The translations under genes and the position numbers were made by a program. The notes below the pieces were generated by a model. The model was not told the origin of the DNA, searched no databases, and saw nothing but the letters and a program-made list of their open reading frames with translations. 64,000 nt of DNA from Amphiscolops sp. MND2022 (taxonomy: Eukaryota), in assembly GCA_964187785.1 (NCBI GenBank), contig OZ076409.1, positions 48,672,001 through 48,736,000 on the forward strand, read 5' to 3'. This document shows, piece after piece, positions 3,201 through 64,000 of this stretch (position 1 is its first letter; every line of letters starts with the position of its first letter).

Positions 3201-6200
3201 AGCAGTTCTAACAATTCTGTATAACTTTTGAGATTTTCGAATGACTTTTGCACAGGGATGGCAAATTTGCGGTATTCAGCTACGGTTGCTGTGATGGACG
3301 GAAATGAATAAAAATAATTATTTTTGAACTTGTTAAAATAAAAATACCTATTCTGGAGATAACTAAAACTAAGAGCGTTTATTTCAACAAATCGTCAGCC
3401 AAATAAATTCGAAAAAAAAAACAAATCGAGCTAATTTCTAGAAATAACTTTGTCAAGTACCTTGGGCTACTGACTCAAAATATCGAAGAGTCCATTAAAA
3501 AAGCCATGTGCCACGTTTTGGCCTGATTATGGATGGCTAATTTATGCTTTTGTTGATATCCGTTCTTCGTTGAGAATAAAAATGGTTATTTCAGCGAAAA
3601 AAATGATAAAACAATTTTTTCCACCCTGAAAATGAAATAATTTATTTTAAAGCAATAAAAATATTCGAATAAAATATTGAACAGCCCTTGTTGTTGATGT
3701 TGTATTTTTTCGGCTACATTTGGACATCTAAAATGTTTTCGCTAAATCAATTCAGGGCGGAAAATACGCCATACCATCCCTGGTTCTCAATATTCAACTT
3801 TACTGATGATTAACGTTTGATTAAAATATAGGTATATCAACTTTTTTTTATTTCGGAGCTGGAAACTATTAAATTTTTCCAGCAGTTAGTTGGACTCAAA
3901 ATTATTTTTACTTTGGTGAAATAAATTCAATGTGTTGTCAGGTAACGCCCTTATGCTGAATCTGCTGGTGGCTATATTCAGCGAGATCTTCAATAAAGTT
4001 TTCGTCAGGTTAACCTTTCTTCCATAATAAAAAGTCATTAAATAACTTATAAACTGACAGTTAAGGGTTATAAAGACACCTATAAAGATTCCACTGTCTA
4101 TAAACTTACCCATCTCTCCTGTTTTTTAGCGTCAACTAAATCACGAGCTGTCCGAGTTCCATTTCATGTTTGATTTCGTAGCTTTTATGCGAAAATATCA
4201 AATTTTCATTCCGAAGATGAAATATCAGCAACCTTGTTTTCCAAAAATGGAAGGAAAAATTTTTCAATTGAGAGTTACGATCGAGACATTAATACCCCAG
4301 TCGAAACTTCAGACATTTTCTACATACTTCCAAAAATTACTTGCAAGATCATACTGTGATAATCCTCTTGTTCGGATTCTTCATTTGAAAGCTCTATTTG
4401 GTCTAAGTCTGTTTCAGTTTCAAAGAAGGGTTTAGCAGGATGTTTCAAGTCCTTCATTTTAGATGCTCTAAGAGGATAGTCGTCGTTCTCGGAATCAGAG
4501 TTTTCGTTATTGGATGCATGAACTCCTATAGATTTACTCAATTTGGATCCCGATGGTTGATTTTCTCGCATTTCATTTATATCCGACATAGGATTAGTTA
4601 CTGTGGATGCACTCTTATTAGACTTTATCTCCTTTAGAATCGCTTCAAGTTTGTTTTCCATTTCTTCTCTCATCTTTTCAATCCTATCGTTGTTCTTTTG
4701 TTCCATGATTTGGGTCCAAACTTGCATTTCATTGTTTATTTGACTAGGTTCGGTTAACTGGTTTTCAGAGCTATTTTCACCTAAATTTCCTTGGGCAACA
4801 TTACTAATATCAATTAAAGCTTCATTACCTGTTTTAGGGGTTTCTATTTGTGTTACCTCCACTTCCCTGTCTGGGGACGGTGTCTCAAGTCTTCTAGACC
4901 TTCGGCTTCTTTAATTCCCATGTTATTCTCAAGTGAAAATGTTTTCTGGCTTTTGGGGAAGAATTTGATTTAGTCTTATATCCCAAAAGAGAAGCAATGT
5001 TGGATTTTTACAGAGGCGAAATCGCAGTTTTACAGTTATTCGAGAAAGTAACTGCACTTGATGAGGATAGGATTCTTAATGAATCTCTCTGATTGAAAAC
5101 TTCGAATAAAATCCAAAAACCATGACACTCTTTTTTATGGGAGTCATCATATGAAAATCGAGACAAAAATAGAATTACGTCCAATGACGTTATATTATAA
5201 AAATAGCACAACTACATGACATCATAAAAGTATGATTGGGAAAAGAAACTAATGAACCCTGGGAGTCTCTAAAGATGGCCTTCTTTCGTAATTGAAATGG
5301 TTTCTAGATAACATTATAACACGTGCTGGATTTATTTAACAAGTCCTGCGAGAACCGTATAGTGACGAGTATGCGTCACAACTGGTTCCGCAGGATGCCG
5401 TAAAAAGTTTTTATGAAAAGCGCATAATGCCGCATACTCGTTACACCTTGAAACGTGTAATGCCGCATAATGATACTAGTAAAAACGCATAATGACGAGT
5501 ATACGTCACACCTTAATCCGCATAGTACCGCATAATTGTACTAGCTATGAAGTAGATTACTATCTGATGACGAATTTTGACGCATCAGGACCTTTAGAAT
5601 ATTTGATTAGACAATGAGATAACTCAATGCATGATCAAAACAAGGGTTCCCAATGAAGTAATGAAGGTATGTTAGCACTATGATGAAGGTCCATTCACAA
5701 TAACCATATTATAAATATCATATTTACATGACTTTCGAGACTAAACAGCATTGAGTTTTAAAGCATCATATAAGACGGGTTCATCAGGGTTTTAGCAAGT
5801 TTGTTGAAATGAGTTTATCATTCGTTCCTCTTCAAAGTTGCGCCACGGAACCATCGCATCTTGATGGATGCGACAGTCCCGCATTTTTAAAGAGGAACAG
5901 GGCTGCTTCAAATCCATGGATAAATGCTCTTGATCTAATCGCTCTTTCTTTCACTGTTTCTCCCTCGTATTCAGTTGCCATGAGGTACTCGCCCAAAGTT
6001 TCCAGCGCAATTTGATCGTAGCATTTACCACATATGTCGCAGTAACCCGCCACATTTGACATGACAGTTGGCAACAGTCTCATGCTTTGTCTCTCTCTTG
6101 CAGGGATCATTATGATATTCGTGCTGTGGGTCACATGAAAGGGAAAGCCCAACTGCACCATAGGTTGAACTGTGATCTGTTGGTTCTCAATGGGAGCTCC

Positions 6201-9200
6201 CCTCATTGGGATGGGGAAGAACGCGGGTGACAAATTAAATCCTTGCACAGTACCCAGAGGACCTTGTGACGGAGCTATATCTCTTTGAAGCTCTTGTTCC
6301 ATGGGTTCACTGAGTTGCGTGTGCTGAAAATCGGATGTCTCTGGCCTGTAGTTAGGTGGGTAAGTGGGGGTTGGCCTTGGCAATATTCCGCCTGCACTGG
6401 GGTTCACTCTTTGGATAGGGGGAACCCTGGCGGTAGGTCGACCATAATTGTTTGTTTCCTCAGGAGGGGTATTACCCAGCGTCCAGGGGAACAAATTCCC
6501 TTCTTCAAACTCGCTATCTATGAATGAACTTGGGGAAATCATCGTATCTTCTTGCGGTTCCCCTAACAACTCCATCAGGTCTTGTTCTATCTGTGTCCCT
6601 GTGGCACTTACAGACTCATTCTGTTCTGCTGTATTGGCCGGATCCACATATAACGAAGCCAATGTTGAGCCCATGAATGCTGACATCAGGTTACTCCCGG
6701 TTGTATTAATTCGAAATCTTTCGTCAAGCTGAGCGATATCTCCGGGAGCCATTGAGAAACTATTTTCTGACTCGCTCGAAATGTGCACCACATCAGGTGA
6801 TATTGGGGAGTACAGAGAATTCATATCAGAATTGAATTGGAGTTTTTCCATTTTAGATTTGTAGAGAAACCACTGAGTATTTCAGATTTTCAAGAATTTT
6901 AGAAGGCAACTGATTTATGAGATTGCAAAGACCATATGGTGATCGGTTTTCTTCTTCCTTTTGATTTTGGATGAAAACCCGCGGAAAAGTTGCTTGTCAT
7001 GTTCTGATCCTGCAGACATCCTTATAAGGATTTCGTAGGTAGTAGATTTTCGGGTTTCATTCACAACGAGTAGTAAACAATTTCCATAAACGGTGTTTCA
7101 GTTAACGCCTTTACTGATCATCACCCATCATCAAAGCTTAAAGCTTTCTTCATACGTTTAAATGATAGATAAACAAATTCTTCCTAACTTCAGAACAACT
7201 AACCAGGAAATATGTTCATGGAAATATTCATTGAAACAACTCAAAAGTGAACTCATTTATTCTTACATGACTAAGTTTACATGAAAATGAAGGATGTCAA
7301 AGTGAATGTTTCATTTCAGTTTCACATCTTTACGGAATCAAAGTTTATTTTTAAGAAAAACATAGTTTAACCCCAGTCCCGCATTTGAAAAGTGCAGCAG
7401 GGTTTGTACTAAAGCAAATAGGTTTTCATGTTTGTTGGTAATTCCAAAAAACTTGTAAAATGTACCAGCAGTCTAGACTTCTAAAAACATATCAAAATCA
7501 TAAGAGCGCCGGTCTTGTATTGGCACATTATTAATATCACACATGTCTTGCCATTAAGAGTATGTAGTTTCTTCATCATATTACATAATACTATTCCATT
7601 CATACGCTTCTAATCATTGACGACATTAATCCACTCCTTTTAAATGCATTCAGCGAAAACCGCATGATGCCGAGTACGCGTCACTACTCAATCCGCATAC
7701 TGCCGCGTACTCGTCACTGCAATTCCGCATACTGCCGCGTACTCGTCACTGCAATTCCGCATACTGCTGCGTATTCGTCTTCAGTCGATCCTCATAATGC
7801 CGTCTACTCTAGCATATAAATCATTCCAATTTGGTTCATATTAACGCATTTGCATGTATTTTCACACCCAGATCCACAATGAGCCAATCAATCACGCTGG
7901 CAGACGTAATTGATATTGAATTAGCCAATCAGATTCCAGTATTTCTTTGCACTTTTGCGCAAACTAGCATCATTTGCTCTTTGCCTTTGCCTTGTTACGC
8001 CACGCCTTTGGTACTTCATCATTTGTCAAACAGTCATATAGTTAAAATAGTACATCAGTCCAGAGTTCACAAAACATTGCAGTTCAATCTACTCCTTTTA
8101 ACCTTCACCGATTTCAGCTTTATTTTCAGCCTTTTATACTTTGTTTGTGGAGTATATATTTTATTTCTTAACCACAATCCACTATCCCCTTCTTTGCATC
8201 ATTTACGGATGGAGGGAAAACAGGAACAGAGTTTATCTGGGGAGAAAGGGACGCAAGGGGAGCAATCACCTCGTCGTTACGGTGGAGGGAGGAATTATAA
8301 TCCATCTTTCTGGTCTGATCCAGGCAAGTCCAACTTTCAATATAATTCTAGTTTGGTTGATTCAGTGAAATTTCGGTTTGTTGAGTTGGCCATACTCATA
8401 CGTGAAATAGATCCTTGTTCATCGGATCAATTTCAGATCCTTTTGAAACGTTTCCGTTTCCAATTTCTAAGTGGCTTCCGGTTTTCATACATTTCCTGTC
8501 CCCGCGTCCGGTTTCAGTCAATTTAAGCGGCTTCCACTTGCATAATTTTGTTTTGTTAACTGGATCATTTGTTTCAGTTGAACTAGAGGCCAGTGAATTA
8601 CATTCAACTCAATCCCCGGTCAAGGTTTATACACCTCTGCAAACATCCTCTCCTAAATTTCCTGTCATCTCAGAAACACTTGAATCCCCAAGTATTCCTC
8701 CGCTTCAAATCCATGAAGAAATTAGTGTGGAAACTACAATCGAGAACACCCCCGTTGATACTCCAGTGACAACCGGGGCTAATCATCAAGAATACACAAT
8801 TGAAAATAACCGCACCACTACTCTAACCAACTCTGAGCAAGAAACGACCCCCACGGGAGACATGGAGAGCTCCTATGCAAACATTAGTCGTGAGATAGTG
8901 GAAAGTTTCATGGATTCAGAAACAGCTCAGGCCTTTTCTTCACATTATAGCCAATACCTACCTCCAGGAACTGGTTCTGGGCTTGAACATGCTATGACCA
9001 ACGTTACGGAGCAAAATGTACCACCCCATAATGAGCTTCCAGAACTGTCTCCAGCTGACGGAGGCAACTTCAGTAATGTTGTGATACAAGATGCTGCTCA
9101 TAGCAGTATTAACATCACTAGGAGGGAGATCCTTGCATTAACTAGAGTCCTGGAACGTATCCCACAAGAGTATGTCCTCAATGAAGAGACTAGAGAAGGT

Positions 9201-12200
9201 CAGGCTTTGACCCTAACCATTGTAAACGATACTGAAACTGCTCCCATCGTCGCCTCATCTAGTCAAGAGGAGGTTGGACAGCCTGTTTCGTCTGACGTTT
9301 ATCCAGATGAATTACAAGGAGGACACTCAATGGGAAGAGGAAAACGTCGCAGACCAAAATATTCTTTGACTGGAGCTATGCTTAAGAAACATCCATTTCT
9401 GGGATTCTCTGCCACTGGCCCCATCGACAAAGACAAAACACCACACAAATGGTGGTGTCGGGTATGCAGGGTAGAACTTTCTCTAATGAGTAGAGGTAGC
9501 CTTGAATTACTATCTCACTACAAAACCGAGTCTCATTTAGTGAAGGAGCACCGGATGCGCATGGAGATACCCGGTATGGCCCTCTTCGACGGAGAAGGAC
9601 GGGAAATCTATGGAATTTCACTGCAAGAAGCCAAGAAAAAAGCCAAAAACAATTACCCAATCGCTCCTCGACTCGACGTATGCCGGCCCCTTGTGGGACA
9701 AGAGTCTGTCCCAGATTTCAATGCTGCTACCAACCCCACCGATAAAGTACTGTCGCAGATCTGCATACTCGAGCACGGACTTCGCCATGGTGGGCACATC
9801 AGAAGCCTTACTGGCAACTATGATGAACTGTCTCGTCTTTCCTCCAGCAGCGGGATGTGTGAACAGAATTGGAGCCCACAGCGACTTTTTGTTAGTAGTT
9901 CTTTCTCAATTGACAGTATTCATTTTCTTTCTGAACCGAATTTCCTTCATAGAAATCCCTTTAATATAAGTTTATTTACTGTGACTAAGGAACATTTTGT
10001 TTGTCTCATATGGAATTTTCGTCTACATGTTCCGAGAATTGGTTGGATATTGTGTCACTGCGATCGCTACATCTGGCCATTACTCTTTCGCTTTGCAACA
10101 TACCCCAACAGCAACGTATCTAATCCTCAACTTCTGGTCGGGGAACGTATTACAGCACGTATGCTTGGGAAGTGGACCACGGGGAATGTTGATGCCAAGG
10201 AAAACCCTGATGACAGTTTCATCATTCATCAGCCTCTTTGAGGAAGCTCCATCTTGTGTTGCCCTCATTGACTTCAGTGAAAAGTTAAGTGAATGTCTAT
10301 CAAACTGTCTCCCAGGAAAACAGCAATCTTCCATTGTCAGTTCATATGGGCCAGAAGAGTTTGAGAAGAGCCTTGCGTTACCAACTTCTCAAATCATTGA
10401 GCGCCACGACTTTCGAACGATATTAGAATTTCTCTTAATGAAGTTGAGAACGGCTTTGGACCGAGATTGGTTAAAGAAGTTACCACTACTACACAAAGTA
10501 ATTAAAATACTATATTCGTTTTACTTAAACGTCTAAGTTTCCGAGGTATGATTTTCCTTTTCTTTTAGTGTGTAGTCCGCTTGGAGTATTCTCTTCAGGA
10601 TGCATCATCGATTATAGAGGCTTTATCCAATAATTGGGATCACGTGCTTGACCACCTTAATCAAGTCGCGAGGCTTCCTGCGTATCGCTTCCATATGCGT
10701 GAGGTTATTTGCTCTCCTTTACCATGTTTCCTTTGAGACCAAAAATACGTATTTTCCTTATCTTCATGTTATCCTTTCGTTTTAGCCAAGCACTTTGGAT
10801 GAATGTTTCCGCCTCGACACGGCTTACCTAGCCCGCCTCTTCGTCATCCGCTGTGTCCTAGACCATTGTTAGTTGTTTTGTATCCATACCACCTATTGTT
10901 GTAACAGTTTCTAAGTATTATCATTCCCAAAACTCAAATTCCTCTTTGTAGCAGACTTTTCATTTCTCCGAAAATCATTGAAGCACAATTAGTATATCTT
11001 TCCTTTCACGGTATATATAATGGTGCATAACCATTCTGCTGGTTGCGAATAGTGACGCATGTTCGCTGTATCTCGTTCCACATTGCTCTGTATTGCCATT
11101 CAGCTCATTCCGCATAATGGTGTATAATCATTCAACTGATTCCGCGTAGTGACGTATAGTCGCTACACCTCGTTCCGCATAGTGACGTATAGACATATAG
11201 CTGATTCCACATAGTGACGTATAGTCGATACACCTCGTTCCGCATAGCGACGTATAGTCATCCAGCTGATCCCGCATAGTGACGTATAGTCGCTACACCT
11301 CGTTCCGCATAGTGACGTATAATCATCCAGCTGAGTCCGCATAGTGATGTATAGTCGCTATACCTCGTTCCGCATAGTGACGTATAATCCTTGATTATTC
11401 AGCTTTAATGTGTCGGTTTCCACCGTAGTAATTCCGCACGTGTTTTATGGCGCTGATGCTTTCTTCAAATCAACTCTTGTTCTTTTCGTTTTGTGAAAAT
11501 GCAGGGCTATTGTATACTTAACTTATTTGTTGTTTTAGACAACTCAGCGTTCTCTGAAGTTCAGAAGAGTGTGGATTGTGGATTTCGCGCCTTCAGTCAG
11601 TTTACCATTTTTATTTACTCCCAGCTTCAGAGTATTTTACCGGATTCCTCGCTTGGGAATATATCGGATTGGGACAATTTTTTGCAGCTTGATTTAGATC
11701 AAGCAGACTTGCCATACAGAACCCCGGACGAGTATGTTCTCAACGAAGATTTTCACAAATTAGTTACTGCGAGTAAATTGCCACGTCCCAGCAAGTTCGT
11801 TGAACAGTGTATTTGCTTTGTTAAATCTTTTTGCGGACAACTATTGGAACATGGGAACATCAAATCTAGACTCATCAGAGGACTGTCAGCATTTGATCCT
11901 GCCGTTATCCTTGTTGGACCGGAAGCCAACTACACGGACGCTATTGAAAAACTGACAAGCCATTTCGTCTCTGTTAACTTGATTACTTCAAGTGTGAAAG
12001 TAAAGGTTGTTAGTCAGTACCGATCATTAGCAGTTAAATTGCGATCCGGGGATTCTCCAGAGTACGATGATTGGATTACGTTTCTGACTTCTCACTATGA
12101 GCTTCAATGTAGACCCGAACTGTTTCAATTGTTCAAGTATTCATGTTTATGTTTGCCTCCACGTGTTGTAATGCCTCCAGAATTTATTGTTCCAATGGCC

Positions 12201-15200
12201 GATTTAGAGTCTGGTGAGGAAAACTTTCAGTCTTGCATAAAAAGTCTTCAGATGTCGTACAGCACTATTCCACATGTTTCCAGCCTGTATCGGGATCCCA
12301 AATCAGTGAGTCGGGTTTTCCGCCTCCTGGGTCGTGGAGCCGATTTATTGGCAGATAGAAAATTTTCCATCTGGAATTTCATGAGGGGGAGTGCTACCCG
12401 TAGAACATCATTGTTAGGAAAACTTGAAACTGGTTATCGCAAGGCTGTTTTGCAACACGATAGGCCAATTGTTTCGTCGACTACAACAACCCCCAGTGTC
12501 AGCAGGACTGGAAGTGTGAACAGTTCTCCTTCACCTGATCCTAGTCTGAGCAGGATTAGTGTATCGCTTAATCGCTGTTCCAGTTCCTCAGTTGAAGATA
12601 CCGGCAAGAAATCCAACTCCAAGTTTGCGAAAGGCAAGAAAAACTAAATGTGAATTGCAGTGTATAATTGATTACTGTTTTCTTTCCATACTTTGTTTTG
12701 TTTGATGTCTGTTTTTGTTACGTATTTATCTTATAACAGGCTAGTCATTACTGATAAAAAACAGGCACTCTCCCTGATATTTATTAGAAGGAAAAGGGAA
12801 AAAAAGAAGATGTTTGTCTGTGATTTGTTCTAATATCTGTATGAGTCAGAGTAGTTTGGGTTGGGATTGGGGCGTAAGTTGTATTTTTCACCACGTGTGT
12901 TTATGGGTTTTAATTGCAATGGAGTATTTTGGGAGTTTTCTGGGGTTTTTTGGGTATCATCAACTGGTGAAATACTTGGTTCTTTTTGAGTTTTTTGGGA
13001 ATTTTCATCATCATCACTGATGTGTTGTGGAATTTCATTTTCGTGATTGTCGTAATTTTGATCTGGTTCAGTGGTCTGTTCCACTGGGCTCCCCCCACCA
13101 TTTTTTGAAGATTCAGGGGAGGGCGGGTGGTTATTTTCGGGGATTTGAATCGGAGCATATTCAGCATCGTCAGTGTCCTGAGAAAACTCGGACGGCCCGT
13201 CTTCAAACGGGTTCGTTCCAAAATTTGTGTTCCATGATTGGGCGTATAGATCATCATTTGCTATAGGCGTTTGATCATCTTTTTGCCAATCAGTTTCACG
13301 AACAAAAATATCTGCCAATGGGGCTTGTGGAATAAATTTCCTGAGCTGGATCCTGTGTAGTAATGCGTTTTGTTAGTGCCAAGTCTCCGGACAATATAAT
13401 TATTGTCAGGGAGTACTTTTTCCACTTTATATGGTCCACACCATCTGAATTCTCGGAATGGTATTTTTGTCGCTTGAGTATCAGCTTTTGGGTTGAGGAT
13501 GTAACAATAGTCCGTCGTTTCGAGCGGAGCTGCTTTTGCTTTCCTATCATAGTAGGCTTTGTATTTGAGATAAGATTGCATGATGTTCTTCTTAGTTTGA
13601 TCTAGAAGGATTTTCATACGTTTTTGGATTTCTTCAGCCACATCAGTCTGTGGTTGGTATCGTGGGTTAGGGTTATATCCAAGTTTGTAGTCTAGGATAT
13701 TATGTGGTATTCTACCATGGAAAACTCGTGAAGGCTCGCAACCGAGTGATGCATGATACGTTGTATTGTGGTTTAGAACTGCCAACGGTAGATACTTATG
13801 CCAGTTATTCCTGAATTCGCCTGTTGCAGCTTTCAGGTGTGTTTTGACTGAAGCATGGGTTCTCTCAAGGAGTCCTATCGTTTGAGCATGTTTCATTGTT
13901 GCGTGTTTAAGTTCAATTCCTAGCACTGCTGCAACTTCATGCGTTATTTGCGCATTGAATTGAGTGCCTAGATCTGTGATTATCGTTGTAGGAAGGTAAG
14001 TGTGTTTGCATAGTATGTCCATGATAACTCTTGACACCGTTGTTGCATTGATGCGAGTTACAGGGTAAGCAAACAAATATTTTGAGAAGACATCTATCGC
14101 CGTGATGATATGGTCATAGCCTCCGCTTGGGGGGAGGTTTGGCAAAATATCCATTTGCAGAATGTCCTCTGGCCCAAGATCCCATTCTGGGCAGTTTAAG
14201 AGTTCAGTTCTGAGAAGATCATTGTTAATGCGTTTTGTTTGGATACACACTTGGCAGTTACTGACCCCTTTTTTGATGTATTTAGCCATACATGGGTAGT
14301 AGTATTTTTGTCGGGCTTCTTGAATCATCTTGGTGATTCCTGGGTGGTTTGAATTGTGACCATGTAGGGCTTGAAGAAATTCTTCTAGCAGTTGGATCGG
14401 TAAGAGAATTTGGTAATGAGATATGGTTCCTGTGTCAGTGTAGTATTTTCGTGTAAGGACTTCCTGTTTTATTTTTATTCGGGTTATATTTTGTAAGTAG
14501 TGTTGGTATCTATAATCGGACGCCAATTCGTTTTCATCAAATGGGTTTCCTTCAAGTTTTGCTCTCAGATTTCTAAGGACGATGTCAATGTTCTGCTCGA
14601 GGCGAATTCTTGCATTATCCTTAAAGTATCCTGATGAGATTGAGATCAACCCCGATGTGGATTTATGAAATTGTTGTAGTTCAGAGACGTCAGTTTCTGG
14701 TTCATTGTGTGTTTCTGTTTGAGCTTGGTCTCGAATATTTTGTTTCTCTTCCCAAAGTTGATTTTCATCAATTTCATCTTCGGGTAGAATGTAAATTTGC
14801 TCTTCGTCTACAATTCCGGTTGATTGGATATTCACCTCAATAGCTTTGGTGTGAATGTCATTGCGGATTGTCATTTCTAGTTTTTCAGTTGGGTCAACTT
14901 CTGTTCTAGATAAGAAGTCAGCTGCTGTGTTCATTGATCCAGCAACATGAGCAATTACGAAATTATATTGTAAGACGTAATCGCACGCATTCCAGAGTGC
15001 TGGTGGAATCATTTTTGCTTGAAAAAAGCGAGTTACTGATCGATTGTCAGTGAAGACTATGACTGGGAAGGTACTTCCCCACATGAGGTGTCCAAACTCT
15101 AAAAATGCGAAATATATGGAAAGGAATTCTTTCGCATATATTGACATTTTAGTTTGTGTTGGATTAAAAGTTTTTGAACCAAATGCAATGGGTGCATACG

Positions 15201-18200
15201 TTTTTCGTTTAGATTGAAGTTTTTGGTTCGGGTCGTCTTCGATCATGATAGCATATCCTGCTGCTGTGAAACTTGCGTCGGACATGACTATAAGTTGTTT
15301 ATTTTTCAGTGGTTGTTTTAATGCTAACTGGCAGGAATTCTCCAGAAGTTTGTTGAGGTTGGTGAAGGCTTCTAGCAAGTTTGTGGGTACGTAGAATTTG
15401 GAGGTTTCTCTGAGGAGTTTGAAGAACGGAGAAAGTCGTTCTGAAAGGCGTGGTATGTAGTTTCGATAATAATTTAAAAATCCAATATACCTTTGTAACG
15501 CCTTCTTTGACTTGGGGAATCGGAGTTTTGATAGAAAATCTGTGACTTTGTCCGCTTGTGGGGCGACTCCGTCTGGTGTTATTGTACGCCCTAGGAAGTC
15601 AACTTGTTTGACTCCAAAGTGACATTTTGACATGGAGAGTTTTAGTCCTGCATTGCGAATGCATTCAAAGAGAGTTTTGATATTTATGCAGAGTTGTTTT
15701 GTGTCGTTTGCCGCTATGCCAATGTCATCGACATATTGGGCACATTGGTCAGCTTTAATTGCTCGATCTAGGTACTCTCTCATAAAGCTTGAAAATGCAG
15801 AAAGTGATCTAGAGAGGCCTTGAGCAAGACGACGATAGGCAAATGTTCTACTGGCAAAATTAAAGGCTAGCATTTGGATGGATTGGTAATCGGCCATCTT
15901 GAGGCAGTGATAAGCCTGTGAGCAATCCACCTTGCAGAACAGTTCCTTTCCTGCCATATGTTGTGCTGCATCTGATAAAGTGCTTACCGGGTGATTGTTA
16001 TTGGTGTAATCTTCAGTGATGAGGTTGTTAATCTTTCTGAGGTCTACTAAAAGTCTAAGACGTCCGTTGGGTTTGCGCTGTGCAAAAATTGGGCTGGCGT
16101 ATTTGGAAAAAAGTAAAGTTGTAATGATACCGTACTTGTGTAGAAGTGCGAGTTCTACTGTGATATCATCCTTGAGATTGATAGGAGTTGGCAGACTTTG
16201 GCTGTAAGCAGGTCTGTCATCATTCGGTGTTAATTTCACTTTGAATTCGCGGTTTATTCCTATATCGAAACGATGTCTGGCAAAGATGTCGTGAAATTCG
16301 ATGAGGATTTCCTCAATTTCTTGTCGTTCGGCTGGGCCGAGTGTTGTATCAGACCAGTCGAAGTTTGAAAGAAATGTTGTTCTTGAGGAATCGTTATCAT
16401 TTGGGTTTAGTTTCTCGAGTTCTTGTAGTTCAAGAAGCTCTTGATAGATGCGTTGCTGAATTGGGGTATATGTTGCAGGGTCGCCTGGTTCATCAGGAGT
16501 AGGGAACCAGTAGGTCTCCTGTTCGGGATTTTGTTGTGGTACTTTAAGAAGTTCATTTATGTGGACTTCTGTTGTTTCTTCGTGTTGAATCATAAACGAT
16601 AACAATGCAGGGTCCACTGGTTGTATATGTTTGATTTGTTCTGGTGTTAAAATCTTGAAATCTGCTAAATGGGTGTCCATTGTAATGGTGTATGGTAATT
16701 CAGAGAAGTTGATGATTTGATAGCCGATAGCATTGTTGTTGACAGTACTGAGCGATGCAGTGATGAAAATGCTATCGTGATTTTCATATTGTTGCGATGG
16801 GGTGACTATGCCGGTGGCATTATGATCCATCAAATGGGGCAATCTGCTTGCGATGGCGAGTGTTTCGCCTGGTTGTAAGGTGTAGGTATTTTCAGCAAAT
16901 AATGGTGTTGCTTGCCTTATTGATGTTTGTGTTTCTGGTTTAAGTTGCATTGATAGATAGGGGAAGGTTAGGATACCCTGTGTAACATCGAAAATTGCGT
17001 TATTTCTCCGGAGGAAACACAATCCGATTAGTGGGTTCGGTAGATTTTTCATGATGATGAGGTTTTCTTTTAACATGAAGTCAGCCACTTCAAATTCTAG
17101 TAGTACCGTACCGATGGGGACTTCTAGTTGTCCATTTGCCACCATAATTTGGAAGTTCGGTGGGGGACCGGTTTCTTTTATTGCCTCATTGGCGAGCAAT
17201 TTGATTTTGTTGAGGTCTTGTTCTGAGATTGCACTTGTGAGAGCTCCAGTATCAATGAGACCATCAAGCGTGAGTTTTTCGAAGTCCATCGGAATGTAGT
17301 ACATGTGGCGTTTTCGCTTCAGTGTTAAAGAGGTTGAAATTGGGAGATATGATAAGTTTCGTTCCTTATCAAATTGTATATGTTCTGTGAGGTCTTCATT
17401 TAGAAGAGGTTGTTTCTCATTATTGCAATAAGTTTTTATTGTTACGTGGTGTTTTGTTTTGTGTTGGGTTTCTGAGTTTGGGTCGGTTTCGGGGTTGTTA
17501 GATTGTTGAGGAAAGTAGTTGTCTGGTGCATCGTGTAAGAGTTCGTATAAGTCTTCAGGTTGAGTTTCCAGAGTTAGTTGTTGTATTTTTTCTGTTATTG
17601 AGTCGGTTTCACAGGCTGATGTTTTTGTAGGTTTTGGGCTCAACTGATGCTGCCAGTCATCAATTGAGTTTGGTTTATGTGGTGGTTTTGTGTAAAGGCG
17701 TGGCGTTTCTAGTTTAAATCCTTTGACGAGGATTGTTGATGTTCCAGTTTTGGTTTAATAGGTTTTTTGGCTTGTTTGTAGTCTTCAATGACTTTTTTCT
17801 GGGCTTCTGTAAGGTTCCATTTGGTTGGACGATTTTCCATATTGGCTCCGAAGTAGCAGTTTTCTTCGTCATGTCCTGGGGTATTGCAATTTTGACATTT
17901 TTCGGATTCCGGATCGTCCTCGAGTTTGCGCCGTTTAGCTAATTTGGGACAGTCAGTCATCATGTGGCCTGTCTCCTTGCAGTAACGGCATTGGTCGTTT
18001 TTGAGGGTTTTATCTGGTACTGTGTTTGGGGTTTGTTTTTTGGTTTTGTCAGTTTGTTTTTTGTTGATTTTTTCAGTATTTTGTTCCTTTTTAGTAACGG
18101 TCATTTGAGTTTTGACGAGAGTGTCGTCTGCTTCTAGGCCGTTAAGTTCCATTTCTCTTTCAAGGTGTTTGACAATTTGATCGTAAGTGCCATTCTCAAG

Positions 18201-21200
18201 ATAAGCTTGGTTAATGGACTTTTTGAGGTGGGGAGGCATTTTGGCATAGAGTAGGTTCTCTATCATTTGGTGGGCATTGTCCCCGAACGCTTTTTCAGCA
18301 CTTTCTTGGAGTTCTTCTAAGAAGTCCGGAAGTTTTTGGTTTTCTGGGTCGAAAAAGAGTCTGTTGAATCTATGTTTAGCAGATGCACTGGACTCTGGTT
18401 TCACATATTTTCGGCGAAAGACTTTTAAAATGTCTTCCAGCGTCGTGGTGGGAGTTCTTTGTATGTTTTTGAAGGTTTTAAGTGCCAAACCTCTGAGATG
18501 GGCGTGGAAATGGTTAATTTTCATTTCCTCTGTTAAGTTTGGTTGCATTCGTAATGTTGTATGGAACAAGTCCTCAAAATATTCGAATTTCTCGTTTTTC
18601 TCATTTTTCCCATTGAAGGTGAGTGTATTTTTGGGGTGAAAAAGTGATTGGGGAGAGTTTTTGTTGGCCAATTTCTCGATTGCAAGAGCAATTTGATTAA
18701 CTGGATCAAGTGGTTGTGTTATTGAGTTCGTTGTATTTTGGACTGCATGGGATCCAATTGTATCATTTAGCTTTTGTGAGCTCTGTCTATGGAGTTGTCG
18801 GTTGGCTCCTGTCACCATGTGATAATCCTCTTGTTCGGATTCTTCATTTGAAAGCTCTATTTGGTCTAAGTCTGTTTCAGTTTCAAAGAAGGGTTTAGCA
18901 GGATGTTTCAAGTCCTTCATTTTAGATGCTCTAAGAGGATAGTCGTCGTTCTCGGAATCAGAGTTTTCGTTATTGGATGCATGAACTCCTATAGATTTAC
19001 TCAATTTGGATCCCGATGGTTGATTTTCTCGCATTTCATTTATATCCGACCTAGGATTAGTTACTGTGGATGCACTCTTATTAGACTTTATCTCCTTTAG
19101 AATCGCTCCAAGTTTGTTTTCCATTTCTTCTCTCATCTTTTCAATCCTATCGTTGTTCTTTTGTTCCATGATTTGGGTCCAAACTTGCATTTCATTGTTT
19201 ATTTGACTAGGTTCGGTTAACTGGTTTTCAGAGCTATTTTCACCTAAATTTCCTTGGGCAACATTACTAATATCAATTAAAGCTTCATTACCTGTTTTAG
19301 GGGTTTCTATTTGTGTTACCTCCACTTCCCTGTCTGGGGACGGTGTCTCAAGTCTTCTAGACCTTCGGCTTCTTTTATTTCCCATGTTATTCTCAAGTGA
19401 AAATGTTTTCTGGCTTTTGGGGAAGAATTTGAATTAGTCTTATATCCCAAAAGAGAAGCAATGTTGGATTTTTACAGAGGCGAAATCGCAGTTTTACAGT
19501 TATTCGAGAAAGTAACTGCACTTGATGAGGATAGGATTCTTAATGAACCTCTCTGATTGAAAACTTCGAATAAAATCCAAAAACCATGACACTCCTTTTT
19601 ATGGGAGTCATCATATGAAAATCGAGACAAAAATAGAATTACGTCCAATGACGTTATATTATAAAAATAGCACAACTACATGACATCATAAAAGTATGAT
19701 TGGGAAAAGAAACTAATGAACCCTGGGAGTCTCTAAAGATGGCCTTCTTTCGTAATTGAAATGGTTTCTAGATAACATTATAACACGTGCTGGATTTATT
19801 TAACAAGTCCTGCGAGAACCGTATAGTGACGAGTATGCGTCACAACTGGTTCCGCAGGATGCCGTATAAAGTTTTTATGAAAAGCGCATAATGCCGCATA
19901 CTCGTTACACCTTGAAACGTGTAATGCCGCATAATGATACTAGTAAAAACGCATAATGACGAGTATACGTCACACCTTATTCCGCATAGTACCGCATAAT
20001 TGTACTAGCTATGAAGTAGATTACTATCTGATGACGAATTTTGACGCATCAGGACCTTTAGAATATTTGATTAGACAATGAGATAACTCAATGCATGATC
20101 AAAACAAGGGTTCCCAATGAAGTAATGAAGGTATGTTAGCACTATGATGAAGGTCCATTCACAATAACCATATTATAAACATCATATTTACATGACTTTC
20201 GAGACTAAACAGCATTGAGTTTTAAAGCATCATATAAGACGGGTTCATCAGGGTTTTAGCAAGTTTGTTGAAATGAGTTTATCTTTCGTTCCTCTTCAAA
20301 GTTGCGCCACGGAACCATCGCATCTTGATGGATGCGACACATACATATCTTGTAAGATATTTTGGACAAATTTTAGCAGACCACACGAAAACTACAAAGA
20401 TCTCACACGATCAGACAGAAAGTACCAAGATCTGGCAAGTCACTTGGCAGAATAATGCATTAAAATTCAAGATCTTGTTCAAAGAGTCTGTGAGTTTATG
20501 TAACGTCCACCTAGCAGAGTACATCATAGAAGTGGGTGCCTAGGGTGCTTAAACAGGAGACCGTTGTCTTACTACAGCCCTAGACATTAGTTCTTAATCC
20601 CGAAATGGTCTCCTAAAAGGAACTTTTTCAAACGTCAAAGGAGGCTCCTCAGTTAGAGCTCCGTGGCGACGTGCCGGCGCACTCAAAGTCCGGACACGTC
20701 CCACAAGCCTGTAAAAACGTATCCTAACGTTTCTGCGACTCTACATACCTCCGAGGTCCGAAAACAGGGGTTTAGCTAAAGTACATTTTAATTAGGAGAA
20801 TAACGTCTAAAATAACAAAAAAAGGGGTTAAAAACACCAAACATCTGCAAAGACCATAAATACGGTACAACAGACAGAGGAAACATCAGGCGTCAGTGTC
20901 AGCTAGTCTTTGACCTGCTAGGTGGCACATGCAAAATAGGCAAACTTCTGAGTTTCTTCATCTTTTGGGTCATTCTTCGGGTTCTGCTGGTAGTTGGGAC
21001 GTCTTCCGAGGGAGATGGCACCACACGGCGTTTTCGGGGATACTTCTATGGCGGGGTGTTCTCTCTCAGGCTGGGTGGGGGTGTTTTTTTGTGCGTTTTT
21101 TTGCTTCTTTTATGATTTTCGGTACCTGCCGGATCGGCCATTTTGAATCACACATTTCGAATTTTTCAACGAAATTTTGTAATTTTCGTTCGGCGACTGC

Positions 21201-27149: not shown

Positions 27150-28535
27150 TTCCCTTCTAATGACTTTTTGTTATAGTTCTTTTCAACGCAATAGAAAGAA
27201 TAGCTAACCTAAATTTTCTTCTTCTGTGACTTTGCACCTTCATTGAGGTGTTTCTCTTCTATTTTGCTCCTCGCCATTACTATGTGGTTGGTGATCTCTC
27301 CTTAAGCATCACGGCCCACATAATTTGAAGTTTTCGGTCTGTTCGGTGCTGAAATAGTCCTACCAATTAGACAAATATGTTTTCCGTTTTTAACGATATT
27401 CGTTAATTTGGTTGTCGGTTTTTTTCCGTGGTGTAACTCGAACTGTGCTACTTTTAATACAGTATGTATTGTAGCACGCGTTACGCGGAGAGCTCGATTT
27501 ACACTTTCGGTTAAACTTATTCCGTCCTCTAAATTTGCTCAATGTTTCGGCTTTTGCAAAGTTGTCTATATTCTTTGGAAGTGAATGCCTCCACTTTGTC
27601 GGATTCTATCTTTTCTGGTATTCCGGACAAATCCAAATTTTCTCGATAGGAAATTCATCACCTCTTTTGTTTCTGAGGTTTTGCAGTTTTTTACGGTAGG
27701 ATGTTTGCTAAATCTGTCTACCGCGATCAGTATTGGTACACCACTGTGTAATTGTTTGTTATGAAGTTTTCCGGTAAAATCAATTTGTTTTCCTGGCCGG
27801 GTACAGTTAGTTTTTCAAATTTTTTGTAGTGCTTTTTCGCTAATTGGCATTTAAGGCAATTACTTGATGCTAGGCATGCTGTGTAGTTCTTCACTTTACT
27901 CTCGATGTCTTGCTTCATGTCCGGCCACCAAAATATTTTCGCTTCAGACGTCAGTTTCGTGATGCCGAAGTCACCGGAATGCAAGCTGTCAAGCTGCCGA
28001 TTAGACCGCGTCTAAGGTCTATTGGAATGACGATTTGGTCGTCAACGAATTTAAGGTCACATCTGATAGAGAATTTGTCGAAAACTGCTCGGTTGCCCTC
28101 CAGATTCGTTTCTCTGTCTTTTCGGCGCATGCTGTTTGTAACCCGTGTCAGCTCCGTCTTAGAGATTAGAGTCTTTAAGGCCAACAAGAACTCGAACTCG
28201 GCTTTCTTGTTTGTAGTAAGTTTTCCGACGATATGGTTGATTTGCATACACTTGGCTTCTTTCCCGTCGGTTGTATTTCGTTAGATTGACAATTGGTAGA
28301 TTGTCGCCCGGCAAGATTATGCTATTTTCTTCAATTTCGGCAGCCTCTTCTTCTTCGATTTCTCCTCTTCCCGTTTGTATTCCGGTTCATCTTCTTCCTC
28401 TACTACTATCAGTTGATAGCTGCCTCCAATTCTGTTCGCGCTCTGGATCAGTTCCGCAACAATTTCGGCGATTTCCTCTCTGCTCGGTTTGTTCTGCCGG
28501 GATGGTGCAAATACCGTTCTTTGTGATTGGTGATC
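27150..28535 (-). pseudogene. Decayed Gypsy-type pol (integrase) fragment
   Basis: Frameshifted pieces: IVIPIDLRR, then HSGDFGITKLTSEAKIFWWPDMKQDIESKVKNYTACLA (remnant of the HHCC zinc domain). Truncated by the satellite. Confidence 0.8.
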
Positions 28536-47420: not shown

Positions 47421-47430
47421 TAGCAAATTA

Positions 47431-47586
47431 AATGAATTTGTGGTGAAATGAACATGGGGTGAAATGAATGTGGGTTGAAATGAATGTGGGGTGACATGAA
47501 CGTGGGGTGAAATCAACGCGGGGTGAAATAATATGGGATGAAATGACATGGGATGAAATTGTTTTGGGGTGAAATGAACGCACACC
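47431..47586. repeat. ~17-bp minisatellite (GGGGTGAAATGAAYGT), probably a transposon subterminal array
   Basis: About 9 imperfect copies. Confidence 0.75.
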
Positions 47587-56335: not shown

Positions 56336-56491
56336 AACACTAACGCGTAGCTTTATCAGTTGTTTTTGGAGTGGAATTGTTGATTCTAAGGGTTACCGGG
56401 TGGTTAAGATTGATTTCAAGTGTTGATTCAATTGTTGAAGTATTTTATGAGAGAAGAAATTCGAGAGCAATGAGGTTATAAGAGTGGCCAG

Positions 56492-59044: not shown

Positions 59045-60626
59045 TGTCGCGATCTTGCTCATCCGTATAAGAATCTACCGAGCTCTCTCTAGATCTCAGT
59101 CTACTATTTTCCTGCGTAAAACAGGTTTTGGGAAGATTTTCCCATGTTTTCTGTGAATTTCCTACTTCGGGGTTCCGCTGTCGCCCACTGGACTTTTGGT
59201 CCTCCACGGTGGAATTACCTGTCCTTGGACGAGGATGAGGCCCGTTGGACACTCGGTCCACCACGGTAAAATTTGGTCTCCCCTGCATTTCTAATACAAT
59301 CTGTATAGAAGGAAGCACTGTATCAGTTATTGCAGCAGTAATAGCATTTTGAATTTGGGAATTTAAGCTGGTTTTGATTTCATTTAGTCTCCTAGACATT
59401 AGGTTTGAAATTTTCTCATTTATCATTCTATTCGTCTCAATCGTGATCTCGCTGTTTTCTCTACTGTTTGTAAGTAATGACCTAAAGTCTTCCCCAGTTA
59501 CATTAGAGGCACGTTGAGGCCTACTTGACTCAGAGTCCAAATTTATCTCAGTTTCGCTATGGCCATTATCTTGATCAATTGTTGAATAATCTCCTAACAT
59601 ACATCAACATTTTTTTCATCAGACATGATGTCTAGTTGTCTAGAGCGTCTCTCCTTCGGCTTTTGCTTCCTTGTAGATGGCATTGAAGAAACACTACTAC
59701 AAGTAATATTGAATTGGAGAACGAGTAGTACAAGTGTATGAAACGGTTAAAACAATCACAATATCAGAATTAACTGGTCAAATTTAGCAACTTGTTTGTA
59801 TTTCATGTTATCGAAAAATTGTCCTTTGGGTCTGGCCTTCTCCCTATTTATAGTTAGGAGGAGGAGACAACACAGAAAATGCGTGTCACGTTACTAAATA
59901 TAGATATGACAAACTAAAAATAGCATCATGTTAGGATACTTCACCATGACGTCATTGCATCAAAGAAAAGAATGAGGGGGGCTTTGACGGTTAAGCCGAC
60001 AAAGTAGGAAAACATTTACAGTGACCTGTAAGTACCTTCAATACTAATCTACAATACTACATGTATTCAGAATGCGTAATTTCATGTTATCACAGTATTT
60101 CACCGTAGCGGACTTTAAGTCCGCGTGGCCACACTCAAATACAGCACTAACAGCACTCTCGCGCTAATTCCACCGTGGCAGACATTCTGTCCACGGAGCG
60201 TCACTAATATACTGCGTTCTGATTGGACTGAAATACTTGTACAGCAAGTACAATAAACTAGAAGAAGCGCTCGTTTGAACGCGTTTCCTCTTCCGCATAC
60301 AATGCATTGCATTATTTGATTGATTTTTCATTCATTTGCCAAATTGCATTAACATTCCAATAACAAAACAGGCACAGGATGATTTACTAAACGATTAAAT
60401 TCATCCTGGTAAACTAAAATTATTAATTGCACTGAGGCCGTATCGACCTTGAGTCTTTTACGGTGAAAATAAAAGTAATAAAAATAAGAACAAAATACTT
60501 GCAGTTTATACTACTTTTAGGTCCTTGGCAGTCTTTATATGGGGAGTACTCCTGGAGTAGGATTAGAGTTGTCTCCTTCCAATGTGATTTGTTAAACATT
60601 GCCGTCACAGGCGGCAGCCTGCGACA
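59045..60626 (-). repeat. 3' LTR of element 2 (1582 bp), containing a gag 5' end (ATG 59683) and a TATAAATA box near 59845
   Basis: On the minus strand it begins TGTCGCA (as element 1's LTR does) right after the purine run AGGGGAG and ends ...GCGACA, where composition and protein content switch abruptly. Confidence 0.8.
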
Positions 60627-61353
60627 CTCCCCTAAGGATAAAGAGCACTGCACCCTGGTACATTCCGGCTAAGAAGGCATCACGTCTTCTCTGTTGATCG
60701 TTGTAACTTTCTCCTCGATAAGTAGTGGACTCTAGGTATCCAAGGACAGCGGTTTCTTTCATTTGTTCATAAATCCTCCCGCAAACTATACAATCACCAT
60801 ATTGAGCTTGGTTTGGCTGTCCACATTGTGACGCTATGCGGACACGCAGTCCTTGTATATGCGAATTTGGTTGGAGCGGCATTTGAGGCTGCGTTATCGT
60901 TGTGTAGTCACAATTATTGTAAATTGGACCACGTTCGTGTGGTGGAGGAGACAGGGGTGTGTCAACTAAAGGCCTTAGTTTACCACAATACTTTTTGGGC
61001 TGGTTACTGCTTTGGGTAGTTGTACTTGGCCCCACTCCCCTATCCAGCGGATCAGCCTGGCTGTCCACCAACTGCATCATGCTATCAAAATCCTCCCAGG
61101 GAAAATCGGGGTAGGTTTCTCCAGCATTTTCTGGTAACTCCACAGTCCTTTTTCGACCTGCAACTAGTCCTTCTGTCTGGATTGGTAGTTGCCGGAAACA
61201 CGAGATCACTTCGATATCACTATCTTCAGATTCGTCTCGGTTAGCACTGACTGACTGAATGTCCACATCGATTTCTTCATCAGAAGAGTAGTATCCAGGA
61301 CTGACTGGAAGAGCTGAGAGGTCGTCTAGACGGAACGGTAGATTCATTTCCAT
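60592..61353 (-). CDS. ORF-X homolog of element 2 (253 aa)
   Basis: GDCIVCGRIYEQ...YLESTTYRGE...RDAFLAG...GVSQAAACDG aligns with GYCDICGKCYDQ...YLMATEYEGE...SRAFIHG...GLSHPSRCDG. Confidence 0.85.
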   Translation of the reverse strand: MEMNLPFRLDDLSALPVSPGYYSSDEEIDVDIQSVSANRDESEDSDIEVISCFRQLPIQTEGLVAGRKRTVELPENAGETYPDFPWEDFDSMMQLVDSQADPLDRGVGPSTTTQSSNQPKKYCGKLRPLVDTPLSPPPHERGPIYNNCDYTTITQPQMPLQPNSHIQGLRVRIASQCGQPNQAQYGDCIVCGRIYEQMKETAVLGYLESTTYRGESYNDQQRRRDAFLAGMYQGAVLFILRGVSQAAACDGNV

Positions 61354-62396
61354 TTTGTTTCGAAATCTACTAAGAAAGACTTTCTTCGCAAATTTGAGGT
61401 TTCTTTACTCGACTGTTTACGAACTTCCCGGCGGGGTAGCAGTTTCTGATCTTTCCTAAATCTTTACCAAACATTCCATATATGTAGGTTTTACCCAATT
61501 TCCCGAAATGGCAACTAACGTAAACTTCATGTCAATAGGTTCTTGAAGGACCTTCTAGTTGTTTACCTAACCACTTGATAGCAGTGAATAGGTGTAATAA
61601 GTGTTAACTCAGGTTAACGGCCGATAAACAACTTCACCATCAAAGACCTTCAGTCCGCATGGCCACATCAACTTAAGTGACCAATGAGGTGTTAGAGATA
61701 AAAGAATGATAAAATTGATGGAAATCAAGTAAAATGGTGGTTTCAACGGATTTAACACTAATTTACGAAATGAACTAATCCCTAAAATGAAATGAGGACA
61801 TGGATTTCACTGGCAGGTTCAATCCACGATGAGAGAGATCTTGACTTGATTATTAAATAATAATAGAGATTGTACATGAGACGAATTGTACATAGTTGTA
61901 GATGTAAGAACTAATTATTAGGCCACGACGTCCATGCATAAAGTAAGTAATTAACCGTCTTGTGTTTTGTACTCCGTGTACGTTGTTTCTAAGTCTAGAG
62001 TGGTCGGTAAGTATACGTAATGTTATTATATTATAATGTATGTCCTGTGTCTGTGATCCAGTAATCTTTTCGCTCTCTTTTCGTCTCTTACACTCAAATT
62101 GATTATTACCACGATTTGTAATTCTACCCATCAAGGGATTATATATTCCTGAATACTATACGGCCGAGTAGACACACTGGTCTGGCATTGATTATCACGG
62201 GCCTACAAAAGGATTGAGTCAGCTTCTTGAGCATATTCTTCAGCCCAACATTTCCAAACGACGTGCGGGACAACAATTCTGTTTTCCATCATGGAAATAA
62301 CATCAGGTTGGTTCTTTCATTTTGTCTCACTAAACTTGATCAGGGTTAGGTTCGACTAATAATACTTCCTACATCGTGAAATGATTTCAAACTAAG

Positions 62397-64000
62397 TTGA
62401 ACGAGTTGAACTTTACTTCCGGAAGACTTTTCAATTGCGGCAAGATGGATTCATTTGCAGGAAGTGAACCGCGCGACTTCATTCCTTTCAATTTAGGAAC
62501 TGAATCAAACGGCCAACCGACCCAGACCTCCACAAACAATGAGAGCATCAGAGAAAACAATCTGACTCAACGCCCTGATGAGGCTGCGCAGACCAGTAGT
62601 CCAGCAACTGTGAGGGAAGCAACTTCTACTTCCAAGCAGTCAACCTCACCTCCTCTTTCTCCCAGCATTTCACCCACTGCCATTGAGATTATCGAGGGAA
62701 GCGGATCACAGGCTTCATCTGAACAAGATTCCTCTGCAAGAAATGCCGATTCTTCTACTCCTGCCGTTAGTCAACAGACCCTGCGACCACTGCCCCCAGA
62801 TTACACTCCTTCCGTAATCAATCCGTTCGCGTCTGGGAATAGTAGTTCTGGAGAGAGCATCCAGGCGTATTTGACCCGCAAAATTGGCAGTCTTGAAGAA
62901 GATTTACGGAAACAAGAGGCTTTAGTGGAGCAATCGACACTGTAAAAGTGAGTGAGAGTGAACCTCTCGTGATGATTCCTTCCTCCAGCTCTCAATTGAG
63001 CCCAACTGTACGAGGTCCCGCTGGACCTAAACTCTCGTTCCTAGTGCCAGTGCTTGGGGCCAGTTCTCAAGCGGAAACAGAACGTACTCAGGGTGCGAGC
63101 AAACGCCCGAGAATAGGGAGTACATCTTTTCATGAAAGCCATCCTCCAGCCAAACAAAGAGCTCCAACTCCGTTTCGTACCATGAGTGATGAAAAGACCG
63201 ACTCGGATTCGAATGTCGAAACGGGTCACAAAGACGACCGGACAGTCACGGTGAACAGTAGTGATCCTGCAGTTGAAACTGATGCTGAGTCTTCCTTTAA
63301 CCCAGCTGGCTCTACGATTGCACAGGCTTTGGACTTGAAGTCCCGACAGCTTAATGTCGAGTCTAGTGATGCTGAAAGTGCGTTTAACACTGTTGGCCTA
63401 CCTGTAGTTTCTAGAAGTCAAAGTCTTAAACCGACTAGCAGGGCGCTCATTAAAGAACACTTCCAAACTAATGAACACTTCAACTTTCCCCAAGGACATC
63501 CAGTTATTGCATTTACTGAGGAACAATTTAGCAGCGTCCTTAAGATTGTCGCGGATGAAACTGTGAGGGCCTCCCAGCACATGTTAGAAGGGATTATCCA
63601 ACAAACAAGGAGATTCACATTAGAAGCCACAACCAGCAACAAGGCTACCCCTACGTTCTTGGGTGACGGACAACACCAAAGGTCAAGAATCGCGACGCCT
63701 GGTCAACTAAGCGACACAAGTGGAGCCCTCCAAAGTGATGATGAGTTCTCCAGCATTGGTTACTCTTACGAAAGGCCAGAGACTAGACTGAGACGATAAT
63801 TGCCCCGCCAAAAGCTTCTGAGGGAGCGTCCTGTAGCTATGCGGACCGACGGGTCGACACCCCATTTACAGCTGCTGATAGTCCTGACGCCCAAACCCTT
63901 GCTTCCTTAAGGGCCGAAGCGATGAAAGACCAGGGTAAGCTTCCTCGTAACCAGCGTGGGATGTTCAGTTCCAGCTCCCGGGGCAAAGGGACCCGCAGGC
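62397..64000 (+). CDS. N-terminal low-complexity part of the antisense accessory gene of element 2; frame breaks near 62945 and 63795; runs off the window
   Basis: S/T/E/P-rich ORFs in the same position and orientation as 8209-9350 in element 1. The window ends at SRGKGTRR, compared with GRGKRRRP just before the zinc finger in element 1. Confidence 0.55.

What the first reader, a model, noticed from the sequence alone, without database searches (positions are those of the whole stretch)
4355..20339. 16-kb Gypsy element with a conserved divergent accessory-gene cassette; a second family member lies in the same window
Seen: between pol and the 3' LTR lie 7 kb with two divergently oriented genes (sense ORF-X and an antisense spliced gene) around a shared spacer. 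Element 2 (59045-64000) shows no obvious DNA similarity, yet repeats the order and has a protein-level ORF-X homolog. Known: standard Ty3/Gypsy elements are gag-pol with or without env. Inference: the cassette is a selected, heritable module that defines a retrotransposon lineage, not one-off captured DNA.
Basis: partly seen in the sequence, partly recalled or inferred. Interest (0 to 1): 0.9.

Follow-up and report, generated by a model that had tools for sequence, protein, structure and literature searches.

The report
Retrotransposon carrying a dead DNA transposase
Thousands of related jumping genes in this genome carry two extra genes, one apparently a disabled enzyme taken from a different kind of jumping gene, which they keep under selection and swap between copies, suggesting a regulatory or counter-defence role.

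Summary
Confirmed and extended. Window 4355-20339 (minus strand) is a young Ty3/Gypsy element: LTRs 99.3% identical, 5-bp TSD, tRNA-Leu PBS. Between pol and the 3' LTR lie sense ORF-X (339 aa, no known fold) and a six-exon antisense gene (about 1,080 aa). Element 2 has the same layout. The cassette marks an integrase clade (100/100) with at least 3,185 motif matches: 19 of 19 informative integrase-first loci carry the antisense gene, 0 of 12 distant loci do. dN/dS is 0.04-0.19 and internal exon sizes match across families about 20% identical in protein. New here: the antisense protein has a BED-like finger and an RNase H core whose top structural matches are the hAT transposase Hermes (weak, E about 2e-3; sequence profiles find nothing). 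The catalytic acidic residues are not conserved. Copies with near-identical flanks often carry saturated-divergent alleles of it (19 of 23 pairs in family 1). Best reading: a retrotransposon-domesticated dead transposase acting as a DNA-binding regulator or anti-silencing factor. Function and expression are untested. The closest analogue is plant Retand antisense ORFs.

The parts
4350..4354 (.). Target-site duplication CATAC (partner at 20340-20344)
4355..5875 (-). 3' LTR, 1.52 kb, TG...CA
   Evidence: 99.3% identical to the 5' LTR
5419..5548 (+). Cluster of CCGCAT-type motifs in the LTR (also 19883-20012)
5832..6851 (-). ORF-X, 339 aa: acidic low-complexity N-terminus; C-terminal CxxC, two helices and CDG; reads across the PPT position and ends about 40 nt inside the 3' LTR
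   Evidence: dN/dS
6852..8208 (.). Spacer between the divergent genes; 32-33 bp tandem repeats with CCGCAT at 7659-7787; putative bidirectional promoter (inferred)
8209..8323 (+). Antisense gene exon 1 (ATG; GC donor in this subfamily, GT in 16 of 20 aligned copies)
8578..9890 (+). Exon 2: low-complexity region, then BED-like C2H2 finger (about 9450-9540) and helical region
10012..10497 (+). Exon 3 (486 nt): RNase H-like core; canonical acceptor missing in this copy only (1 of 20)
10569..10703 (+). Exon 4 (135 nt)
10786..10867 (+). Exon 5 (82 nt)
11001..11422 (+). 32/33/65-bp tandem array with CCGCAT in intron 5
11539..12647 (+). Exon 6: helical region, W-x11-P-x-L motif resembling the hAT C-terminal domain (resemblance recalled), basic tail
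12830..17754 (-). pol (PR-RT-RH-IN), -1 frame relative to gag with TTTAAAC at the overlap; tail in another frame in this copy
17709..19385 (-). gag (Ty3 capsid, CCHC knuckle); the first 189 codons lie inside the 5' LTR under purifying selection and read through the PBS
18806..18817 (-). 12-nt PBS complementary to the 3' end of a host tRNA-Leu(CAG)
18818..20339 (-). 5' LTR
59045..64000 (-). Element 2 (family 2): 3' LTR 59045-60627, ORF-X 60592-61353, antisense gene from about 62445 (+, broken); continues to 76245 outside the window

Best explanation
An ancestral Gypsy element acquired an intron-bearing DNA-transposase gene of hAT type in antisense orientation. That orientation lets the introns survive reverse transcription, because they are not spliced from the genomic RNA (inferred). 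The gene lost catalysis but kept its BED-like DNA-binding finger and scaffold, and is now a fixed accessory gene of the clade. It is probably expressed with ORF-X from a bidirectional spacer. Most likely function (inferred): a nuclear, multimeric, sequence-specific DNA-binding regulator of the element's own LTR and spacer that promotes transcription or counters silencing. ORF-X's acidic disordered region may act as a co-activator. Divergent alleles are exchanged between backbones by template switching and are maintained by frequency-dependent selection from host silencing. Shown: architecture, clade-wide presence, purifying selection, mosaicism, RNase H fold with Hermes ranked first, loss of the acidic residues at the mapped positions. 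Inferred: hAT ancestry (about 0.75), expression, DNA target, regulatory role (about 0.5), cause of allele diversity.
Confidence: 0.5

Rival explanations
1. The dead transposase is an integration cofactor: it binds the cDNA ends or chromatin and steers the integrase or nuclear entry, and does not regulate transcription.
For: Transposase scaffold with a DNA-binding finger and basic tail. The motif occurs in the LTR in family 1. Plant reviews raise nuclear-import roles for antisense ORFs (PMC7264820).
Against: The largest arrays lie inside the element (spacer, intron 5), not at the ends. Alleles 62% identical work with the same integrase backbone, which is unexpected for a tight integrase partner.
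Confidence: 0.15
2. The protein is a self/non-self or copy-number control factor: it represses or excludes elements of its own allele class, and rare alleles escape.
For: 29 allele clusters among 40 exon-3 peptides at 85% identity. Saturated alleles between near-identical flanks.
Against: The finger and the CCGCAT motif are constant across family-1 alleles, so allele specificity would have to lie in protein-protein surfaces. There is no direct evidence.
Confidence: 0.15
3. The cassette is selected, but the antisense protein derives from another RNase H-fold source (another DDE transposase superfamily, an integrase or a host protein), not hAT.
Against: Only Hermes aligns the long helix before strand 1 together with the core (109-136 residues against about 80 for integrases). 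Domain order is finger, helices, RNase H, insertion, C-terminal motif. Exon 6 independently points to Dimer_Tnp_hAT.
Confidence: 0.17
4. The antisense gene is a nested, still autonomous or decaying DNA transposon hitchhiking in Gypsy copies.
For: Nested insertions are common in this genome. The middle module has a history separate from its flanks.
Against: Same position and orientation in every family. No catalytic acidic residues. The best candidate for a free-standing copy proved to lie in a Gypsy element. No inverted repeat of 30 nt or more flanks it.
Confidence: 0.03

Closest known systems
Plant Retand/Grande/RIRE2 (Tat lineage) Gypsy elements with antisense ORFs (PMC11963269, passages; PMC7264820, main text)
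   Same: Long pol-3'LTR region, lineage-wide antisense ORF with predicted DNA binding, tandem arrays, own promoter in Grande, proposed regulatory role
   Different: No TRP28 (PF04195) hit here. The gene has five introns (the word intron does not occur in PMC11963269), has a traceable transposase-like fold, is paired with a divergent sense ORF, and shows allele swapping. PMC7264820 says TE origin of plant antisense ORFs is not supported by similarity.
hAT transposases (Hermes; PDB 4D1Q, 8EDG) and host-domesticated hAT genes (ZBED, DAYSLEEPER; the latter seen as a search listing only)
   Same: Finger, helical region and RNase H core in the same order; best structural match
   Different: Catalytic acidic residues not conserved; about 400-700 aa low-complexity N-terminus; carried by a retrotransposon, not by the host or its own TIR element
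VANC anti-silencing proteins of Vandal MULEs (PMC13317346, passages)
   Same: TE-encoded accessory protein, short motifs in the element's non-coding regions, family-specific
   Different: VANC sits in DNA transposons. No homology was tested. No methylation data here. Arrays are found only in family 1 and its sister L077.
Burro giant Gypsy elements of planarians (PMC6431247, passages)
   Same: Large, abundant Gypsy elements with accessory domains
   Different: Burro accessory domains are mostly inside one sense polyprotein, with env, BIR and BCL2; no antisense spliced gene in the passages read
env-bearing Gypsy elements (errantivirus-like)
   Same: Extra sense ORF before the 3' LTR
   Different: ORF-X has no env or fusion family hit, while the same scan detected PF24664 in the neighbouring lineage

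Membership tests
Ty3/Gypsy LTR retrotransposon | Direct LTRs with TG...CA and a 4-6 bp TSD | tested here: met
Ty3/Gypsy LTR retrotransposon | gag, then PR-RT-RH-IN order | tested here: met
Ty3/Gypsy LTR retrotransposon | PBS matching a host tRNA | tested here: met
   12-nt match to tRNA-Leu(CAG); (1 of 4 loci called as a tRNA)
Ty3/Gypsy LTR retrotransposon | Polypurine tract before the 3' LTR | tested here: inconclusive
   Purine-rich in families 2 and 4, weak in families 1 and 3; overlapped by ORF-X codons
hAT transposase | N-terminal BED-type zinc finger | tested here: inconclusive
   C-x2-C...H-x5-H invariant, modelled at pLDDT above 90; no Pfam hit
hAT transposase | RNase H-like core preceded by the long helix, as in Hermes | tested here: met
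hAT transposase | DDE catalytic triad | tested here: not met
   Asp in 0 of 40 and 8 of 40 at the two mapped positions; no S-x-x-x-E-R motif in exon 6; mapping inferred
hAT transposase | C-terminal PF05699 domain | tested here: inconclusive
   Atlas lead 0.88; non-significant but correctly placed hhalign match; no Pfam hit
hAT transposon | Own TIRs and 8-bp TSD around the gene | tested here: inconclusive
   No inverted repeat of 30 nt or more; shorter TIRs not searched
Retand (plant Tat lineage) | Antisense ORF between pol and the 3' LTR | tested here: met
Retand (plant Tat lineage) | TRP28 (PF04195) domain | tested here: not met
   No hit
Retand (plant Tat lineage) | RT placement in the Tat/Retand lineage | not tested
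   No named reference RTs available; all 120 listed pol relatives were unnamed
env-bearing Gypsy | Third sense ORF encoding a fusion glycoprotein | tested here: not met
   ORF-X: no Pfam family, small helical model
VANC-like anti-silencing factor | Sequence-specific loss of silencing marks on cognate elements | not testable with these tools
   Needs expression and chromatin data

The most novel reading that the evidence does not exclude
A retrotransposon clade has domesticated a DNA transposase for its own use. The result is a catalytically dead, spliced hAT-derived protein kept as dozens of ancient alleles that are swapped between backbones under frequency-dependent selection. It would act as the element's anti-silencing or self-recognition system and help the clade reach thousands of copies.
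Probability: 0.3. Interest if true: 0.88.

Novelty: new variant of a known kind. Interest (0 to 1): 0.72.

Why it matters
The origin and function of antisense accessory ORFs in LTR retrotransposons are described as open (PMC7264820, PMC11963269). This clade offers a case with a candidate origin (a class II transposase captured by a class I element), strong purifying selection, a candidate binding motif and a natural allele series, so the question becomes testable. It is also a large part of this genome: at least 3,185 integrase-motif matches, about 5% of 1.07 Gb if all were 16 kb, which is an upper-type estimate. Gene annotation pipelines are likely to call its spliced gene a host gene.

Tried and rejected
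No RNA holder was listed, so splicing is inferred, not observed. Homologue search for exon 6 among longer proteins found none. Pfam found nothing for either accessory protein. PDB profile searches were not significant. hhalign against this genome's hAT transposases was not significant. ORF-X: no usable Atlas hit and no Foldseek match in PDB or BFVD (best E 2.0 and 0.7; model pLDDT 65). JGI metagenomes gave no relative. Earlier scan findings: none. Search for a free-standing donor transposon: the top candidate lay inside a Gypsy element. The idea that the repeat motif co-varies with the antisense allele was rejected. No LTR-spacer shared repeat was found in the eight non-family-1 elements tested. 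ORF-X as env was rejected. L139's antisense frame did not match exon 6. Discarded results: the integrase identity columns (query out of frame, redone), the LTR-ORF test (start not found, redone), and locus L088 (fetched on the wrong side). Literature searches listed no paper describing a hAT-derived antisense gene in an LTR element. The library lacks most subscription journals, Repbase, Dfam and GyDB were unavailable, and no supplements were read.

Full report
THE ELEMENT. The window is G000:C1:48672001-48736000 of an unnamed 1.07-Gb genome; the host was not identified. Bases 4355-20339 are a minus-strand Ty3/Gypsy element. The LTRs are 1.52 kb and 99.3% identical, with TG...CA ends and a CATAC TSD. 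Pfam gives Ty3 capsid and CCHC in gag and PR-RT-RH-IN in pol. A 12-nt PBS matches a host tRNA-Leu(CAG). gag begins 189 codons inside the 5' LTR and reads through the PBS. That part is selected: pN/pS 0.25, open in 13 of 15 homologous copies out of 24 examined, with control frames at 0.64-1.0. ORF-X ends inside the 3' LTR in all families seen. Element 2 (59045-76245 in window coordinates) is older (LTRs 91.6% identical), broken, and has the same layout. It sits in the env-like gene of a third, unrelated Gypsy lineage.

GENE STRUCTURE. An alignment of 20 family-1 copies (L038 left out for an internal duplication) shows three-base periodicity on the minus strand over ORF-X and on the plus strand over the antisense exons. 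Splice sites are conserved around otherwise unalignable introns. The model has six exons and about 1,080 aa. Sixteen family-2 copies (L053, L055, L066, L068 and element 2 left out) show the same last four introns in the same phases. Internal exons are 486, 135 and 82 nt in 30, 34 and 36 of 36 models, although the two families are about 18-22% identical in these peptides. Further families share the 486-nt exon. Unnamed database relatives that lack intron 2 join the finger region to exon 3 exactly at the predicted junction. No RNA run was listed, so splicing is inferred. The window copy lacks the canonical intron-2 acceptor and is probably defective for this gene.

DISTRIBUTION. ORF-X queries give 4,865 and 4,931 first-look candidates, 150 scored each. 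Of 40 hand-picked ORF-X loci, biased to intact frames, 20 of 20 family-1 and 18 of 20 family-2 loci carry the whole cassette next to integrase. For an unbiased view I used an integrase motif with 3,185 matches and 0 in the control, and fetched every fifth of the first 100 listed. One was fetched on the wrong side. Of the other 19, all 19 have the antisense gene and 18 have ORF-X within 10 kb; they reveal at least two more families. An RT motif has 6,209 matches. Seven loci lacking the integrase motif were hand-picked and read for 4.4 kb only. Four (integrase 56-59% identical) have the last exon; three (about 45%) gave no hit and remain unresolved. Twelve hand-picked generic rve loci have no cassette. 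In an integrase tree of 28 selected rows the 20 cassette rows form one side of a 100/100 branch; a 66-row quick tree agrees. Outside the genome, 425 cluster representatives match exon 3, all unnamed. P0249 is only 28-37% identical to its best G000 matches among the 115 candidates scored, which suggests other genomes carry the gene; their context could not be read.

SELECTION AND MOSAICISM. NG86 medians over pairs with dS between 0.1 and 2, family 1 / family 2: IN 0.03/0.02; ORF-X C-terminus 0.05/0.08; ORF-X N-part 0.19/0.19; antisense exon sets 0.04-0.05 / 0.04-0.10, from only 1-10 pairs each because most pairs are saturated. Among family-1 pairs whose ORF-X and IN are both close (at least 88% and 90% DNA identity), 19 of 23 have antisense exons under 75% identical; in family 2, 3 of 10. 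Six family-2 pairs show the reverse, a close antisense gene with a distant ORF-X. These pairs share copies and are not independent events. Switch points lie in the spacer and at the end of pol. Forty exon-3 peptides fall into 29 clusters at 85% identity. Strong splits also conflict between ORF-X and IN trees (11 of 14 and 6 of 7), so recombination is general. What is special to the antisense gene is the depth of the diversity retained.

CIS MOTIF. Family 1 and its sister L077 have same-strand CCGCAT arrays at about 10- and 32-bp spacing in LTR, spacer and intron 5: 120 against 3.4 expected in 12 spacers, and none in 6 kb of gag-pol. The core is constant across alleles, as is the finger. Families 2-4 lack such arrays, which weakens a general finger-binds-array model.

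MECHANISM. Antisense orientation explains why introns persist in a retroelement (inference). A conserved finger, a transposase scaffold without catalytic residues, a basic tail and motif arrays in promoter regions fit a nuclear DNA-binding regulator of the element. By analogy, Hermes BED domains bind subterminal repeats (PMC10368747, passages) and VANC proteins counter silencing through short motifs (PMC13317346, passages). I give this 0.5. Integration cofactor and self-restriction get 0.15 each, non-hAT origin 0.17, and hitchhiking transposon 0.03.

COMPARISON AND VERDICT. It is a Gypsy element. It works like plant Retand/Grande in layout (PMC11963269, passages; PMC7264820, main text) but lacks TRP28 and is not filed there. 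The antisense protein resembles a hAT transposase but fails the catalytic-triad test and is not filed as an active one. Burro differs in organisation (PMC6431247, passages). PMC9911081 (passages) was read on an unverified host guess and says nothing on such elements in those passages. Nine literature searches listed no description of this cassette; Repbase, Dfam, GyDB and supplements were not seen. Verdict: real, a new variant of a known kind, interest 0.72.

Noticed in passing
window 57212-59044 (-) and L107-L111, L114, L115: A separate Gypsy lineage with an env-like gene of the Monjiviricetes class III fusion family (PF24664, E 3e-20). Element 2 is inserted into this gene, and its LTR-encoded gag start happens to be in frame with it.
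   Followed up: partly
window 18818-19385 (-): 189 gag codons lie inside the LTR: pN/pS 0.25 against 0.64-1.0 for the upstream LTR control, open in 13 of 15 copies. Every 3' LTR or solo LTR therefore carries an open-ended coding start.
   Followed up: yes
L105 + L125 (G000:C1:46529728-46547727): Downstream of a different Gypsy integrase lies an antisense region with a SET-like frame and a 1,101-aa frame with tyrosine-recombinase-like motifs (both labels recalled). It is either a nested element or a second antisense accessory gene.
   Followed up: partly
L139:3810-4400 (-): A sister lineage at 45% integrase identity has an antisense frame ending in a basic tail at the cassette position, with no profile match.
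   Followed up: partly
element 2, 65551-68583 in extended window coordinates; L132-L133; L038; L055: Tandem duplications of 1.5-2.7 kb inside the antisense gene in several copies.
   Followed up: no
G000:C8 from 35587798: Large tandem cluster of tRNA-Leu-type 3' ends; 840 pattern matches genome-wide, most of the first 100 listed are here.
   Followed up: no
window 28448-33559 and 45933-47443: Satellite arrays with about 185-bp units.
   Followed up: no
window 53000-59000: Strong GC skew (0.26-0.54) marking the env-bearing element.
   Followed up: no
G000:C12:43411540 and 43425749: Two near-identical ORF-X copies 14.2 kb apart, possibly tandem elements sharing an LTR.
   Followed up: no
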